From sequence record OR757454.1: DNA of 64,000 nt. One strand, 5' to 3'. Each line of letters opens with the position of its first letter. Positions within the stretch are counted from its first letter, which is position 1. Made by a program: the position numbers and the translations under genes. Positions 16,864 to 23,213 of this stretch are shown in pieces. The notes under the pieces are model-generated. The model worked only from the letters and a program-made list of their open reading frames with translations, was not told the DNA's origin and ran no database searches. This DNA is from Escherichia phage BYEP02.

Positions 16864-18137
<1,274 letters not shown>

Positions 18138-18182
18138 TTATTTAGCTTCATAAAATGTATTATAATTTATATAAGGTACTAA

Positions 18183-19043
18183 ATGAAACAATACCAAGAT
18201 TTAATTAAAGACATTTTTGAAAATGGCTATGAAACCGATGACCGAACAGGCACAGGAACAATTGCTTTGTTCGGTACTAAATTGCGTTGGGATTTAACAA
18301 AAGGTTTTCCTGCAGTAACAACTAAAAAGCTCGCCTGGAATGCATGCATTGCTGAGCTTCTATGGTTTATTTCCGGTTCTACCAATGTTAATGATTTACG
18401 TCTTCTTACTCACGGTAGTCTTATTCAAGGTAAAACTATCTGGGATGACAATTATGAAAACCAAGCTAAAGACCTAGGATATCATAGTGGTGAACTTGGT
18501 CCTATATACGGTAAACAATGGCGTGATTTCGGTGGTGTGGATCAATTAGTTGAAACTATTGATCGTATTAAAAAATTACCAACTGATCGACGTCAAATCG
18601 TTTCAGCATGGAATCCAGCTGAAATCAATCAAATGGCATTACCGCCCTGTCATATGTTCTATCAGTTTAATGTGCGTAATGGTTATCTTGATTTACAATG
18701 GTACCAAAGAAGTGTAGATGTTTTCTTGGGATTGCCATTCAACATTGCCTCGTACGCTGCCTTGACGCATATTGTGGCTAAGATGTGTAATCTTATCCCA
18801 GGAGATTTGATATTTTCTGGCGGTAATACTCACATCTATATGAATCATACTGCACAATGTAAAGAAATTTTACGTCGTGAGCCTAAAGAACTATGTGAAC
18901 TTAAAATTGATTGGCCTATAGAGTTTGGAAATTGTGACACCGAAACACAGCTTTACTGGTTAACTGAATACATGAAACCGAAAGATTTTATCCTTGAAAA
19001 TTATGAATCGCATCCAGCAATTAAAGGGAAAATGGCAATATGA
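18183..19043 (+). CDS. td: thymidylate synthase, intronless
   Basis: continuous 286-aa [29 protein letters not shown]...PPCHMFYQF...; no intron interruption. Confidence 0.9.
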
Positions 19044-19303
19044 TTTTACGATTTAAAGATACTTCTGGCGTTGTTCTTTTTACACTTCCTAACCCAAGCG
19101 AGTTAGAAGTTCCAGGACCAGAACAGCCTATTATCATTTATGGTAAAAAATACTATACTCATACAATGACTCGTGAATATTTTGACAATAAAATTTCCAC
19201 AGTTAAAACTTCTTCTGACTGTTACTACGATATTACTGTATTAACGGAAAAACAATATGCCGAATCATCACCGCGCTGGCCGTCTATGTCGGGTAGTGAA
19301 TAA
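19040..19303 (+). CDS. hypothetical protein (87 aa)
   Basis: ATG overlaps td stop (ATGA); no motif recognised. Confidence 0.4.
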
Positions 19304-19583
19304 ATACAAATCCGACTTTGATGTTAATATTCACCGCGGTACATTTTGGGGAAATTACGTCGGTAAAGATGCTGGCAGCCGGGAGGCTGCCATTGAATTA
19401 TTCAAAAAAGATTTTATACGTCGAATTAAATCCGGAGAAATAACTAAAGCACATTTAGAGCCTTTACGTGGAATGAGGCTAGGATGCACATGTAAACCAA
19501 AGCCGTGTCATGGTGATATAATAGCTCATATAGTTAACCGATTGTTTAAAGACGATTTTCAAGTTGAGGACTTATGCAATTAA
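19257..19583 (+). CDS. DUF4326-like small protein
   Basis: 108 aa with [13 protein letters not shown]... and C-terminal [12 protein letters not shown] motif resembling DUF4326 as recalled; not verified by search. Confidence 0.45.
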
Positions 19584-21992
19584 TTAATGTTATCAAAAGT
19601 AGTGGTGTTTCTCAGAGCTTTGACCCACAAAAAATTATTAAAGTTTTATCTTGGGCAGCTGAAGGAACATCTGTAGATCCTTATGAATTATATGAAAATA
19701 TTAAATCATATCTCCGTGATGGAATGACCACTGATGACATTCAGACTATTGTCATTAAGGCTGCTGCGAATTCTATTTCAGTTGAAGAGCCTGATTATCA
19801 ATACGTAGCTGCACGCTGTTTAATGTTTGCTCTTCGTAAACATGTTTACGGACAGTATGAACCACGTTCATTTATTGACCATATTTCTTACTGTGTAAAT
19901 GAAGGTAAATACGACCCTGAACTGTTGTCAAAATATTCAGCAGAAGAAATTACATTTTTAGAATCAAAAATTAAGCACGAGCGGGATATGGAATTTACTT
20001 ATTCCGGGGCGATGCAATTAAAAGAAAAATATCTAGTTAAAGATAAAACCACTGGTCAAATTTATGAAACTCCACAGTTTGCATTTATGTGCAATTAAAA
20101 GAAAAATATCTAGTTAAAGATAAAACCACTGGTCAAATTTATGAAACTCCACAGTTTGCATTTATGACTATTGGAATGGCATTGCATCAAGATGAACCTG
20201 TTGATAGATTAAAACATGTTATTCGTTTTTATGAAGCAGTATCTACTCGACAGATTTCATTGCCAACTCCTATTATGGCTGGTTGCCGTACTCCGACTCG
20301 ACAGTTTAGTTCATGCGTTGTTATTGAAGCTGGTGATTCATTGAAGTCAATTAATAAAGCTTCTGCTTCAATTGTTGAATATATTTCTAAACGCGCTGGA
20401 ATTGGAATTAACGTAGGTATGATTCGTGCTGAAGGTTCTAAGATTGGCATGGGTGAAGTACGCCATACTGGTGTTATTCCTTTTTGGAAACATTTTCAGA
20501 CTGCAGTTAAATCATGTTCACAGGGTGGAATTCGTGGCGGCGCTGCTACTGCTTATTATCCTATTTGGCATTTGGAAGTTGAAAATCTTCTCGTTTTGAA
20601 AAATAACAAAGGCGTAGAAGAAAACCGCATTCGTCATATGGATTATGGTGTTCAGCTGAATGATTTGATGATGGAACGATTCGGAAAGAACGATTACATT
20701 ACTTTGTTCAGTCCGCATGAAATGGGTGGCGAGCTTTATTATTCTTATTTTAAAGACCAAGACCGTTTCCGTGAATTATACGAAGCAGCAGAAAAAGACC
20801 CTAATATTCGTAAAAAGCGTATTAAAGCCCGTGAACTATTTGAATTGCTCATGACTGAACGTTCAGGAACAGCAAGGATTTATGTGCAGTTCATTGATAA
20901 TACGAATAACTATACTCCGTTTATTCGTGAAAAGGCACCTATTCGTCAGAGTAACTTGTGCTGTGAAATTGCTATTCCAACAAATGATGTGAATAGTCCT
21001 GATGCTGAAATTGGATTGTGTACTCTCTCTGCATTCGTACTGGATAATTTTGACTGGCAAGACCAAGATAAAATTAATGAATTGGCAGAAGTTCAAGTTC
21101 GTGCTCTTGATAATCTTTTGGATTACCAAGGATATCCAGTTCCTGAAGCAGAAAAAGCTAAAAAGCGTCGAAACCTTGGTGTAGGTGTTACTAACTATGC
21201 AGCTTGGCTGGCAAGTAACTTTGCTTCTTATGAAGATGCTAACGATTTAACACATGAACTATTTGAGAGATTACAGTATGGACTCATTAAAGCATCCATT
21301 AAGCTCGCCAAAGAAAAAGGACCTTGCGAATATTATTCAGACACTCGTTGGTCTCGAGGCGAATTACCTATCGACTGGTACAATAAAAAGATTGACCAAA
21401 TCGCAGCTCCAAAATACGTTTGTGACTGGTCGGCGCTGCGGGAAGACCTTAAGCTCTTTGGCATCCGTAATAGCACATTATCAGCACTTATGCCATGTGA
21501 GTCATCTTCCCAAGTTTCTAACAGTACAAACGGTATCGAGCCTCCACGTGGACCAGTCTCTGTTAAAGAGTCAAAAGAGGGTTCCTTTAATCAAGTCGTG
21601 CCCAATATTGAACATAACATAGACCTATATGATTATACATGGAAATTTCAAAAGAGGGCTCCTTTAATCAAGTCGTGCCCAATATTGAGCATAACATAGA
21701 CCTTTACGACTATACATGGAAATTAGCTAAGAAAGGTAATAAACCTTATCTTACGCAGGTAGCTATTATGCTGAAATGGGTTTGTCAATCAGCTTCGGCG
21801 AATACATACTATGACCCCCAAATCTTCCCTAAAGGCAAGGTTCCAATGTCAATAATGATTGATGACCTTTTGTATTTTTGGTATTTTGGCGGAAAAAATT
21901 TCTATTATCATAATACCCGCGATGGTTCTGGTACTGATGATTATGAAATAGAAACTCCTAAAGCTGAAGATTGTTCATCCTGTAAATTATGA
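19574..21992 (+). CDS. nrdA: ribonucleotide reductase large subunit NrdA, frame broken by two 77-bp duplications
   Basis: [22 protein letters not shown]...; 2419 nt minus 154 = 754 aa + stop as T4 NrdA. Confidence 0.9.
20013..20166. repeat. 77-bp direct tandem duplication inside nrdA
   Basis: copies 20013-20089 and 20090-20166; identical. Confidence 0.9.
21571..21724. repeat. 77-bp direct tandem duplication inside nrdA (divergent copies)
   Basis: copies 21571-21647 and 21648-21724; about 5 mismatches. Confidence 0.9.
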
Positions 21993-22043
21993 TATAATTT
22001 GACTCATGGACGAGTCACCAACTATTAACTAAGCGGAAAATTT

Positions 22044-23213
22044 ATGAGCACAGTTTTTAATACAAATCCAGTTGATGTTTTAAAAGAACCTATGTTCTTC
22101 GGTTCAGGTCTTGGTATTGCGCGTTATGATATTCAACGCCATAAAGTTTTTGAAGATTTGACTGAAAAGCAATTATCATTTTTCTGGCGTCCTGAAGAAG
22201 TAAACTTGATGATGGATGCTGCACAATTTAATAAACTTCCTCAGTATCAACAGAATATTTTTACTAATAACCTGAAGTATCAATCACTTTTGGATAGCAT
22301 TCAGGGTCGCGCGCCATCTGCTGTACTTATGTCATTAATTTCAGACCCAAGCCTTGATACATGGGTTGCTACGTGGACTTTTAGTGAAACTATTCACAGC
22401 CGTTCATATACACATATCATGCGAAATCTTTATACTGATCCATCGAAGGTGTTTGATGAGATTGTATTAGATGAAGCTATTATGAAACGTGCTGAGTCCA
22501 TTGGGCGATATTACGATGATGTCTTGGTTAAAACCCGTGAATGGGAAAACGCTAAAGAAGAATACGAAGGAATTTTGTCTGAAGGTTGGCGCAAAGATGA
22601 ACTTGGTAAAGTCGTTGAATACGCCAAACGAGAGCTAATGAAATCTCTTTACCTCTGTTTGCACGTTATTAATGCCTTAGAAGCTATTCGTTTTTATGTA
22701 TCTTTCGCATGTACCTTTAACTTCCATAAGAACATGGAAATCATGGAAGGTAATGCCAAGATTATGAAGTTCATTGCACGTGATGAGCAGCTTCACCTTA
22801 AAGGCACCCAATATATTATTCGTCAACTTCAATCCGGTACTGATGGCGATGAATGGGTTAAAATTGCTCAAGAGTGTGAACAAGAAGCAGTTGATATTTT
22901 CATGGAAGTTAACCGCCAAGAAAAAGATTGGGCAGTTCATTTATTTAAAGATGGCGATGTTCCTGGATTAAATACAAATAGCATGTGGAGCTTTATTGAT
23001 TACTTAACTGTATCTCGTATGAAACAGTGCGGTCTTCCATGCCCAATTACTGATGCTCCGGTTAAACATCCGTATCCTTGGATTCGTGAATATCTTAATT
23101 CTGATAATGTTCAATCTGCACCACAAGAAGTAGAACTGTCATCTTACCTTGTAGCACAGATTGATAATGATGTTGATGATAAAGTTATGATGAGTTTTAA
23201 AAAATATTTTTAA
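22044..23213 (+). CDS. nrdB: ribonucleotide reductase small subunit NrdB, intronless
   Basis: continuous 389-aa ORF MSTVFNTNPVDVLKEPMFFGSGLGIARYD... Confidence 0.9.
   Translation: MSTVFNTNPVDVLKEPMFFGSGLGIARYDIQRHKVFEDLTEKQLSFFWRPEEVNLMMDAAQFNKLPQYQQNIFTNNLKYQSLLDSIQGRAPSAVLMSLISDPSLDTWVATWTFSETIHSRSYTHIMRNLYTDPSKVFDEIVLDEAIMKRAESIGRYYDDVLVKTREWENAKEEYEGILSEGWRKDELGKVVEYAKRELMKSLYLCLHVINALEAIRFYVSFACTFNFHKNMEIMEGNAKIMKFIARDEQLHLKGTQYIIRQLQSGTDGDEWVKIAQECEQEAVDIFMEVNRQEKDWAVHLFKDGDVPGLNTNSMWSFIDYLTVSRMKQCGLPCPITDAPVKHPYPWIREYLNSDNVQSAPQEVELSSYLVAQIDNDVDDKVMMSFKKYF

What the first reader, a model, noticed from the sequence alone, without database searches (positions are those of the whole stretch)
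19040..19583. Two ORFs between td and nrdA, one with a DUF4326-like Cys/His motif
An 87-aa ORF overlapping the td stop is followed by a 108-aa ORF whose motifs ([12 protein letters not shown] and [12 protein letters not shown]) resemble DUF4326-family proteins as I remember them. The two ORFs overlap by 47 nt, which might also indicate a frameshift splitting one gene. I do not recall any gene between td and nrdA in T4, so this looks like an insertion.
Basis: partly seen in the sequence, partly recalled or inferred. Interest (0 to 1): 0.55.

Follow-up and report, generated by a model that had tools for sequence, protein, structure and literature searches.

The report
T4 genes nrdA.2 and nrdA.1
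The two small ORFs between td and nrdA are the long-annotated phage T4 genes nrdA.2 and nrdA.1, not an insertion or a broken gene; nrdA.1 really is a DUF4326 protein, a widespread viral domain whose function has been predicted but never tested.

Summary
The DUF4326 guess is right (PF14216, E=5.5e-22, 78.7 bits against a cut-off of 25). The 87-aa ORF is a full-length DUF5496 / phrog_2458 protein (E=6e-55).

T4 (NC_000866) annotates exactly this pair, nrdA.2 (87 aa) and nrdA.1 (108 aa), between td and nrdA with the same 47-nt overlap. The window proteins are 91% and 95% identical to T4's, and 514 phage records carry the segment.

It is not a split gene. Each ORF fills its own family model. No fused homologue appeared. 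In other T4-like phages the two genes are separate: a 4-nt overlap, or another gene between them.

The overlap is needed, because the ATG at 19257 is the only in-frame start that keeps strand beta1 of the domain.

Function is inferred only. DUF4326 has invariant R27, G32-N33 and C77-x-C79-x-P-x2-C84-H85-G-D. Relatives are fused to SLOG, NADAR and Macro domains. The best, weak, fold match is RapZ-C. This fits the published prediction of an enzyme acting on phosphorylated ribose of ADP-ribose-derived molecules or nucleic-acid ends.

Verdict: already known, ordinary.

The parts
18183..19043 (+). td (thymidylate synthase), 286 aa, uninterrupted (no td intron); context gene upstream
   Evidence: ORF list. 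Annotated as td in the matching phage records. T4's td is split in two pieces around I-TevI.
19040..19303 (+). nrdA.2, 87 aa, DUF5496 / phrog_2458; conserved core about residues 1-70 plus a variable C-terminal tail
   Evidence: PF17600 E=6.1e-55, 183.7 bits, model positions 1-87 of 87. phrog_2458 E=4.4e-38. 91% identical to T4 NP_049847. Only 12 clusters in 5.8 billion proteins, all at least 85% identical, none fused. The tail is variable.
19257..19303 (+). 47-nt overlap of nrdA.2 (tail) and nrdA.1 (head), read in two frames; the most variable stretch of the locus
   Evidence: The same overlap is annotated in T4. 8 of 47 columns vary among window, T4, NR1 and L012, against 4 substitutions in 144 flanking columns. 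The differences from the T4 proteins cluster here.
19257..19583 (+). nrdA.1, 108 aa, stand-alone DUF4326 protein
   Evidence: PF14216 E=5.5e-22. phrog_464 E=5.1e-49. 95% identical to T4 NP_049846. AF2 model pLDDT 88.6, pTM 0.81.
19287..19526 (+). DUF4326 domain proper (residues 11-90)
   Evidence: Pfam match limits. Predicted elements: E12-15, H42-59, H64-70, E74-77, H85-96.
19317..19355 (+). motif [13 protein letters not shown] (residues 21-33), holding the near-invariant D22, R27, G32 and N33
   Evidence: Among 148 representatives no more than 50% identical to each other: R27 144/146, G32 140/148, N33 148/148, D22 131/145.
19482..19517 (+). motif [12 protein letters not shown] (residues 76-87): C77 ends strand beta3, then loop 78-84, and H85 opens a helix; the predicted active or metal site
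   Evidence: C77 148/148, C79 147/147, P81 147/148, C84 147/147, H85 147/147, G86 141/147, D87 136/147. Secondary structure.
19373..19392 (+). perfect 8-bp G+C-rich hairpin with a GGGA loop inside nrdA.1 (codons for A-G-S-R-E-A-A)
   Evidence: Inverted repeat I4. Fold of -16.9 kcal/mol, z=-2.3. The loop is reverse-complemented in a related contig.
19574..19583 (+). 10-nt overlap of the nrdA.1 stop region with the nrdA start
   Evidence: ORF list. The same 10-nt overlap is annotated in T4.

Best explanation
The segment holds two ordinary, conserved early-region genes of T4-type phages (genus Tequatrovirus): nrdA.2 (87 aa, DUF5496/phrog_2458) and nrdA.1 (108 aa, DUF4326). They sit in the frd-td-nrdA-nrdB nucleotide-metabolism cluster and read in the same direction as their neighbours. 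That much is shown.

They are two separate genes. The 47-nt overlap exists because the T4-type NrdA.2 has a poorly conserved tail of about 18 residues beyond its conserved core, which runs over the short, poorly conserved head of NrdA.1. The ATG at 19257 is the only in-frame start upstream of strand beta1 (R12-V-V-N15) of the DUF4326 domain.

How NrdA.1 works is inferred, and I put it at about 0.35-0.4. It is a minimal one-domain enzyme of the RapZ-C/DUF488/DUF4326 branch of the rhodanese-phosphatase superfamily. Its site lies at the C-terminal end of strand beta3, formed by C77, the loop T-C79-K-P-K-P-C84, and H85-G-D at the helix start. The loop R27...W-G32-N33 that follows beta1 completes it. 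On this reading it binds, and probably hydrolyses or transfers, a phosphate on a ribose of an ADP-ribose-derived or nucleotide-derived molecule, or of a nucleic-acid end. That would serve either phage nucleotide economy or counter-defence against NAD+/ADP-ribose-based host immunity.

NrdA.2 is a small, lineage-restricted protein of unknown role. It or a paralogue sits immediately upstream of nrdA.1 in enterobacterial T4-like phages, so it may be a co-translated partner (weak inference). The confidence given (0.9) is for the identity and gene structure, not for the mechanism.
For: Identity:
- The T4 record lists nrdA.2 and nrdA.1 between td and nrdA with the same lengths and the same 47-nt overlap.
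- The window proteins are 95% and 91% identical to them.
- 514 phage records match the segment, 488 of them at 95-99% identity.
- One record names the two genes NrdA.2 and NrdA.1.

Families:
- PF14216 at E=5.5e-22 and PF17600 at E=6.1e-55.
- phrog_464 and phrog_2458.

Separate genes:
- AV117 has td-DUF5496-73aa-DUF4326-nrdA. Muldoon and L010 have td-65/68aa-DUF4326 with 4-nt overlaps.
- Those small ORFs are phrog_2458, at E=2e-15 to 1e-19.

Start codon:
- V13, V14 and N15 are conserved in 122-129 of about 138 representatives and lie in strand E12-15.
- No ATG, GTG or TTG lies in frame between 19257 and V14.

Mechanism:
- C77, C79, C84 and H85 are invariant in 147-148 of 148 divergent representatives, as are R27 and N33.
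- The strand-Cys-loop-helix arrangement is seen in a confident model.
- Of 38 multi-domain relatives, 6 also carry YAcAr (SLOG), 5 mSLOG, 4 DprA-like SLOG, 3 NADAR, 1 NADAR-DarT1 and 1 Macro.
- Published predictions agree: PMC9503650 and PMC7824862.
Against: No experiment on NrdA.1, NrdA.2 or any DUF4326 protein turned up in the literature searches.

The classical CX5R phosphate-binding signature, present in RapZ as CTGGKHR, is not kept. DUF4326 has a longer loop and no arginine.

Three invariant Cys and a His within nine residues fit a zinc site as well as a catalytic loop, and I could not read model coordinates to tell these apart.

The gene context in T4-like phages (td, nrdA, nrdB, rnlA) is inherited synteny and says little about function.
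Confidence: 0.9

Rival explanations
1. The two ORFs are an insertion into the td-nrdA junction, absent from T4.
For: None from tools.
Against: T4 NC_000866 annotates both genes at this site. Identity to the T4 proteins is 91% and 95%. 514 phage records carry the segment. DUF4326 lies next to td or nrdA/nrdB even in Acinetobacter, Aeromonas, Pantoea and Serratia T4-like phages.
Confidence: 0.01
2. The two ORFs are one gene, either split by a frameshift error or normally joined by a programmed +1 frameshift within the 47-nt overlap into an NrdA.2-NrdA.1 fusion protein.
For: The ORFs overlap by 47 nt, with nrdA.1 in the +1 frame. A phrog_2458 gene sits directly upstream of DUF4326 in several phages.
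Against: Each ORF covers its own family model end to end. No fused homologue exists among the 12 NrdA.2 clusters or the listed close NrdA.1 homologues. In AV117 a 73-aa gene separates the two. In Muldoon and L010 the upstream stop overlaps the nrdA.1 ATG by 4 nt. The overlap ATGCCGAATCATCACCGCGCTGGCCGTCTATGTCGGGTAGTGAATAA contains no homopolymer run or slippery heptamer. It is the least conserved part of the locus, the opposite of what a recoding signal would show.
Confidence: 0.03
3. NrdA.1 is not an enzyme. It is a small zinc-binding module in which C77, C79, C84 and H85 chelate a structural metal, and it binds a protein or nucleic acid, for example as an adaptor as RapZ is for RNase E.
For: Three invariant Cys and a His lie within nine residues. 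The CX5R arginine is lost. The closest fold, RapZ, is an adaptor protein. Some relatives are fused to DNA polymerase A, RNase H and RNA polymerase.
Against: The other invariant polar residues (R27, N33, D22, N15, D87) are not metal ligands; on a Rossmann-like topology they would sit at the same strand-end face (inferred, coordinates not read), which suggests a ligand pocket. Adjacent C84 and H85 rarely bind the same ion (general knowledge). Repeated fusions to SLOG, NADAR and Macro domains, which bind or cleave nucleotide and ADP-ribose derivatives, point to small-molecule chemistry (PMC9503650). A zinc site and catalysis are not mutually exclusive.
Confidence: 0.2
4. NrdA.1 is an accessory factor of the phage ribonucleotide reductase, for instance a thiol/redox or assembly factor using its CxC motif, as its name and position beside nrdA suggest.
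For: It lies directly upstream of nrdA with a 10-nt overlap in the window and in T4, and likewise in the Acinetobacter, Serratia and AV117 phages. There is a weak hit to phrog_24867, 'ribonucleotide reductase NrdA-like', at E=1.4e-6. Rhodanese-type folds can perform redox and thiol transfer (general knowledge).
Against: In Aeromonas phage Ah1 the gene sits between a HAD-like gene and a GIY-YIG-like ORF followed by rnlA, with no nrdA nearby. In Pantoea phage Phynn it follows nrdB. The family has 15,635 representatives at 50% identity, reaching haloarchaeal and giant viruses. None of the fusion partners found is a ribonucleotide reductase. The phrog_24867 hit covers only residues 37-100, and the family name may be a mislabel.
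Confidence: 0.08

Closest known systems
Phage T4 nrdA.1 (NP_049846; the '12.4 kDa protein in the td-nrdA intergenic region')
   Same: 108 aa, 95% identical. Same position, same 47-nt overlap with nrdA.2 and same 10-nt overlap with nrdA.
   Different: Five substitutions, all in residues 2-8, the overlapped head (MPNHHRAG against MTNYSSVG).
Phage T4 nrdA.2 (NP_049847; Pfam DUF5496, phrog_2458)
   Same: 87 aa, 91% identical, same position.
   Different: Six of the eight substitutions are in the C-terminal tail. In the window its ATG overlaps the td stop by 4 nt, whereas T4 has a 20-nt spacer.
[quoted passage not shown]
   Same: Full-length domain match. All family-invariant residues are present (R27, G32, N33, C77, C79, P81, C84, H85, G86, D87). 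The predicted fold matches other viral DUF4326 models at E down to 6e-13.
   Different: The T4 subfamily has WGNY instead of WGNP, NIHRG instead of YIGRG, and an extra Cys11 that most of the family lacks. It is a stand-alone domain, not fused to SLOG, NADAR or Macro.
RapZ C-terminal domain (PDB 5o5q, 5o5s)
   Different: RapZ keeps the CX5R signature. DUF4326 has a longer loop with two extra invariant Cys and no Arg. Identity is 12%, and the profile comparison is not significant.
NADAR / YbiA domain (PDB 2b3w, 8bau, 8bat)
   Different: No Pfam NADAR match at E up to 1. NADAR and DUF4326 occur as separate domains within the same proteins, so they are different modules.

Membership tests
Pfam DUF4326 (PF14216) | Profile score above the curated gathering score, over the whole domain | tested here: met
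   78.7 bits against a cut-off of 25, E=5.5e-22, residues 11-90 on model positions 1-81 of 82.
Pfam DUF4326 (PF14216) | Family-invariant residues R...WGN and C-x-C-x-P-x2-C-H-G-D | tested here: met
   All are present in the window protein. Their invariance was measured over 148 representatives no more than 50% identical to each other.
Pfam DUF4326 (PF14216) | Shared predicted fold with other family members | tested here: met
   The model (pLDDT 88.6) matches BFVD models of DUF4326 proteins, with 15 hits at E<=1e-3 and TM up to 0.85.
T4 nrdA.1 / nrdA.2 orthologues | High identity to the T4 proteins and the same place between td and nrdA | tested here: met
   95% and 91% identity. Same gene order and overlaps as in NC_000866.
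Pfam DUF5496 (PF17600) / phrog_2458 | Profile score above the curated cut-off, full length | tested here: met
   183.7 bits against a cut-off of 27, model positions 1-87 of 87. phrog_2458 at E=4.4e-38.
Rhodanese-phosphatase superfamily (RapZ-C/DUF488/DUF4326 clade) | Conserved Cys at the C-terminal end of a core strand, followed by a loop and a helix N-terminus that forms the anion-binding cradle | tested here: met
   In the AF2 model: strand 74-77 ending in invariant C77, loop 78-84, helix 85-96. This rests on a predicted structure only.
Rhodanese-phosphatase superfamily (RapZ-C/DUF488/DUF4326 clade) | CX5R (or CX4-5[RK]) active-site signature | tested here: not met
   DUF4326 reads C77-T-C-K-P-K-P-C-H85-G-D, with no Arg after the loop. 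RapZ has C-T-G-G-K-H-R.
Rhodanese-phosphatase superfamily (RapZ-C/DUF488/DUF4326 clade) | Significant structural or profile similarity to solved members | tested here: inconclusive
Rhodanese-phosphatase superfamily (RapZ-C/DUF488/DUF4326 clade) | Cys-dependent phosphate or sulfur transfer activity | not testable with these tools
   This needs biochemistry.
NADAR (PF08719) | Profile match to the NADAR model | tested here: not met
Programmed-frameshift or split gene | Fused single-ORF homologues, or a conserved slippery site in the overlap | tested here: not met
   No fused homologues. The genes are separate in relatives. The overlap is the most variable stretch and has no slippery run.
Known anti-phage defence or named NCBI families | Match to PADLOC or NCBIfam models | tested here: not met
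   No hits for either protein at E up to 1.

The most novel reading that the evidence does not exclude
NrdA.1 is the minimal stand-alone form of a virus-wide enzyme that removes or transfers a phosphate on the ribose of ADP-ribose-derived immune signals or of ADP-ribosylated or phosphoribosylated nucleic-acid ends. That would make it an unrecognised T4 counter-defence gene. The small NrdA.2-type protein encoded just upstream would be its co-translated partner or regulator.
Probability: 0.2. Interest if true: 0.55.

Novelty: already known. Interest (0 to 1): 0.15.

Why it matters
As a finding it matters little. Both genes have been in the T4 annotation for decades, and databases already label nrdA.1-type proteins as 'DUF4326 domain-containing'.

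The residual value is that T4, the most tractable phage, carries the smallest one-domain version of a family with at least 15,635 clusters at 50% identity. That family spans phages, archaeal viruses and giant viruses. It has been predicted, but never shown, to process ADP-ribose-related phosphates. A T4 nrdA.1 knockout and the purified 12-kDa protein would be a cheap way to test that prediction.

Tried and rejected
1. Sequence search of PDB chains with NrdA.1, with NrdA.2 and with the family profile: only chance-level hits.
2. Foldseek against the PDB: nothing.
3. The afdb50 library was not available.
4. hhalign of the family profile against the RapZ C-domain: not significant, and with a single target sequence it had little power.
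5. AF2 of NrdA.2 with its shallow alignment of 11 sequences at least 85% identical: best model pLDDT 68, the other four 33-41. I judged it unreliable and did not fold-search it.
6. PADLOC and NCBIfam: no hits.
7. Literature: no paper on nrdA.1 or nrdA.2 function, and none mentioning DUF5496. The 2023 Burroughs and Aravind paper on the rhodanese-phosphatase superfamily is not held. What I say about its clade name comes from my memory of the abstract.
8. The alternative GTG start at 19296, used in the NR1 record (95 aa): rejected, because it would remove R12 and V13 of strand beta1 and the subfamily-invariant C11.
9. Promoter and terminator scan of 18000-20000: no more sites than in shuffled sequence.
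10. The 70-aa ORF upstream of DUF4326 in the Acinetobacter phage is not an NrdA.2 relative: no phrog or Pfam hit, and it is hydrophobic.

Full report
OBSERVATION

- The first begins with an ATGA that overlaps the stop of td (18183-19043).
- The second ends 10 nt inside nrdA (start 19574).
- The two overlap by 47 nt, with the second in the +1 frame relative to the first.
- Both quoted motifs are present ([13 protein letters not shown], residues 21-33; [12 protein letters not shown], residues 76-87).
- Minus-strand ORFs here are 44 aa or shorter and match nothing.

WHAT THE TWO ORFS ARE

Against Pfam, the 108-aa protein matches DUF4326 (PF14216) at E=5.5e-22, 78.7 bits against a gathering score of 25, covering model positions 1-81 of 82. 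The 87-aa protein matches DUF5496 (PF17600) end to end at E=6.1e-55. PHROGs gives phrog_464 and phrog_2458, both of unknown function.

Megablast of 18900-19700 finds 514 phage records, 488 of them at 95-99% identity. Nearly all are Tequatrovirus phages of Escherichia, Shigella, Yersinia and Salmonella. The closest are slur03, slur08 and slur14 at 99.8%. One record names the genes NrdA.2 and NrdA.1.

The T4 reference record itself lists nrdA.2 (264 nt) and nrdA.1 (327 nt) between td and nrdA, overlapping by the same 47 nt. The window proteins are 91% and 95% identical to T4's.

ONE GENE OR TWO

The evidence points to two genes.
- Each ORF fills its own family model.
- NrdA.2 has only 12 clusters among 5.8 billion proteins. 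All are at least 85% identical, 55-91 aa long (the full-length ones 82-91 aa), and none carries DUF4326.
- The listed NrdA.1 homologues are single-domain proteins of about 90-130 aa.
- In Escherichia phage AV117 the order is td, DUF5496 (82 aa), a 73-aa ORF, DUF4326 (101 aa), nrdA.
- In Serratia phage Muldoon and in contig L010 a 65- or 68-aa ORF ends 4 nt inside the DUF4326 start.
- Those 65-73-aa ORFs belong to phrog_2458 like NrdA.2 (E=2e-15, 4e-12, 1e-19). Their core ends at ...CWFEVDVT, equivalent to ...CYYDITVLT in the window.

The T4-type NrdA.2 therefore carries an extra tail of about 18 residues, and that tail is what overlaps nrdA.1.

The overlap is the least conserved stretch of the locus. 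8 of 47 columns vary among the window, T4, NR1 and contig L012, against 4 substitutions in 144 flanking columns. The protein differences from T4 cluster in it. It has no slippery run. This is the opposite of what a recoding site would show.

WHICH START CODON

One record (NR1) starts nrdA.1 at the GTG at 19296, giving 95 aa. That would remove C11, invariant in the T4-like subfamily, and R12-V13 of strand beta1. V13, V14 and N15 are conserved in 122-129 of about 138 divergent representatives, and the strand spans residues 12-15 in the model. No other ATG, GTG or TTG lies in frame between 19257 and that GTG. So the ATG at 19257 is the credible start and the 47-nt overlap is real.

THE DUF4326 DOMAIN

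A profile of 75 homologues finds 15,635 representatives (clusters at 50% identity) at E<=1e-3.

Over the 148 best of these, the invariant or nearly invariant residues are:
- R27 (144/146), G32 (140/148), N33 (148/148)
- C77 (148/148), C79 (147/147), P81 (147/148), C84 (147/147), H85 (147/147)
- G86 (141/147), D87 (136/147)

C11 is specific to the T4-like branch (23/108; most of the family has Thr).

AlphaFold2 with the 75-sequence alignment gives a confident model, pLDDT 88.6 and pTM 0.81. Its elements are strand 12-15, helices 42-59 and 64-70, strand 74-77 ending in C77, loop 78-84, and helix 85-96 starting at H85.

Fold comparison:
- Foldseek finds nothing in the PDB.
- In BFVD it finds only other DUF4326 proteins, from phages, haloarchaeal viruses, pandoraviruses, pithoviruses and marseilleviruses.

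RapZ's C-domain reads ...IGCTGGKHRSV..., a CX5R signature. DUF4326 reads ...[13 protein letters not shown].... The G-C-T and the helix-opening His are shared, but the loop is longer, there are two extra Cys, and the Arg is missing. hhalign against the single RapZ sequence is not significant.

DOMAIN PARTNERS

Of 38 longer family members scanned against Pfam, the co-occurring domains are:
- YAcAr (a SLOG family): 6
- mSLOG: 5
- DprA-like SLOG: 4
- NADAR: 3, plus 1 NADAR-DarT1
- Macro: 1
- Single cases of DNA polymerase A, RNase H and RNA polymerase

This reproduces what Aravind's group reported. [quoted passage not shown] An earlier paper predicts a link between NAD+-based signalling and DNA modification (PMC7824862). 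A 2025 preprint notes DUF4326 at the C-terminus of amoeba-virus homologues of the anti-Avs protein ORF83.

MOST LIKELY MECHANISM (INFERRED)

NrdA.1 is a one-domain enzyme. Its pocket would be formed at the C-terminal ends of strands beta1 and beta3 by N15, D22, R27, G32-N33, C77, C79, C84, H85 and D87. That placement is inferred from the secondary structure, since I could not read the model coordinates. It would act on a phosphorylated ribose of an ADP-ribose-derived or nucleotide-derived molecule, or of a nucleic-acid end.

I give this about 0.35-0.4. The main rival, at about 0.2, is a structural zinc site made of the C-x-C-x4-C-H cluster in a binding module. A dedicated role with ribonucleotide reductase is less likely:
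- In Aeromonas phage Ah1 the gene is not next to nrdA.
- In Pantoea phage Phynn it follows nrdB.
- No relative is fused to reductase domains.

No experiment bears on any of this.

NrdA.2 remains of unknown function. Its model is unreliable, and it is confined to close T4 relatives. Its paralogues sit upstream of nrdA.1 with translational-coupling-type 4-nt overlaps.

VERDICT

The 'insertion' and 'split gene' readings are wrong. This is the known T4 nrdA.2-nrdA.1 pair: already known, low interest. The only open question is the biochemical function of DUF4326, which this window does not make more testable than T4 itself already does.

SIDE OBSERVATIONS

77-nt tandem duplications. The window carries 31 tandem duplications, all of exactly 77 nt. 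Three of them break frd and nrdA into pieces. Reference phages have a single copy: a 401-nt query maps to 324 nt in them. This is the signature of k=77 assembly-graph segments joined without trimming their overlap, so it is an artefact, not biology.

Hairpin inside nrdA.1. A perfect 8-bp G+C-rich hairpin with a GGGA loop lies at 19373-19392. In contig L012, whose protein cluster has 184 member sequences, the 4-nt loop is exactly reverse-complemented (GGGA to TCCC), changing S-R-E to S-L-P. Several database variants are frameshifted around it.

Differences from T4. The window has no td intron, no mobE or nrdB.1, and no nrdB intron. It has an extra phrog_1928 ORF between frd and td.

Noticed in passing
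window, 31 sites: 4325, 6478, 7526, 7764, 9117, 10150, 14691, 15229, 17610, 20013, 21571, 25764, 28329, 31795, 33274, 36846, 37839, 38077, 42273, 43883, 47462, 47999, 48357, 48666, 50403, 51799, 52873, 54240, 59889, 62751, 63311: Tandem duplications of exactly 77 nt (71-77 of 77 identical) and of no other period between 20 and 300. Because 77 is not a multiple of 3, each one frameshifts its gene: frd at 17610, and nrdA at 20013 and 21571, which is why nrdA appears as three ORFs. Reference phages have one copy. This is almost certainly k=77 de Bruijn graph segments concatenated without trimming the overlap. The imperfect copies suggest junctions between variants in a mixed population.
   Followed up: partly
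window 19373-19392 (inside nrdA.1); L012 717-736: A perfect 8-bp G+C-rich hairpin, TGGCAGCC-GGGA-GGCTGCCA, in an A+T-rich genome. In a related contig the 4-nt loop is exactly reverse-complemented (TCCC), changing SRE to SLP in a protein cluster of 184 member sequences. That looks like a loop inversion by template switching at a palindrome. Database variants P0028, P0046 and P0072 are frameshifted around this spot.
   Followed up: partly
window 17766-18137 (+): An ORF of 115-123 aa (phrog_1928, unknown function, no Pfam hit) lies between frd and td. T4 has no gene there, since its frd and td overlap. This, not the td-nrdA interval, is a real difference from T4.
   Followed up: partly
window 18183-19043, 21992-22044, 22044-23213: td is uninterrupted (no group I intron or I-TevI). 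nrdA is followed directly by nrdB, without mobE or nrdB.1. nrdB is a single 389-aa ORF (no intron), unlike T4.
   Followed up: no
L005 4282-4719 (Aeromonas phage Ah1); L007 4276-4671 (Pantoea phage Phynn): In both phages the gene just downstream of DUF4326 is a 131-145-aa ORF with a GIY-YIG-like motif (..YIGKT..W.R...YRNS..), followed by RNA ligase 1. It may be a homing-endonuclease-like insertion. The motif was judged by eye only.
   Followed up: no
L008 2035-2504 (Escherichia phage AV117): Two tandem phrog_2458 paralogues (82 aa and 73 aa) lie upstream of the DUF4326 gene. Only the first reaches the Pfam DUF5496 threshold, so Pfam under-detects this small family.
   Followed up: yes
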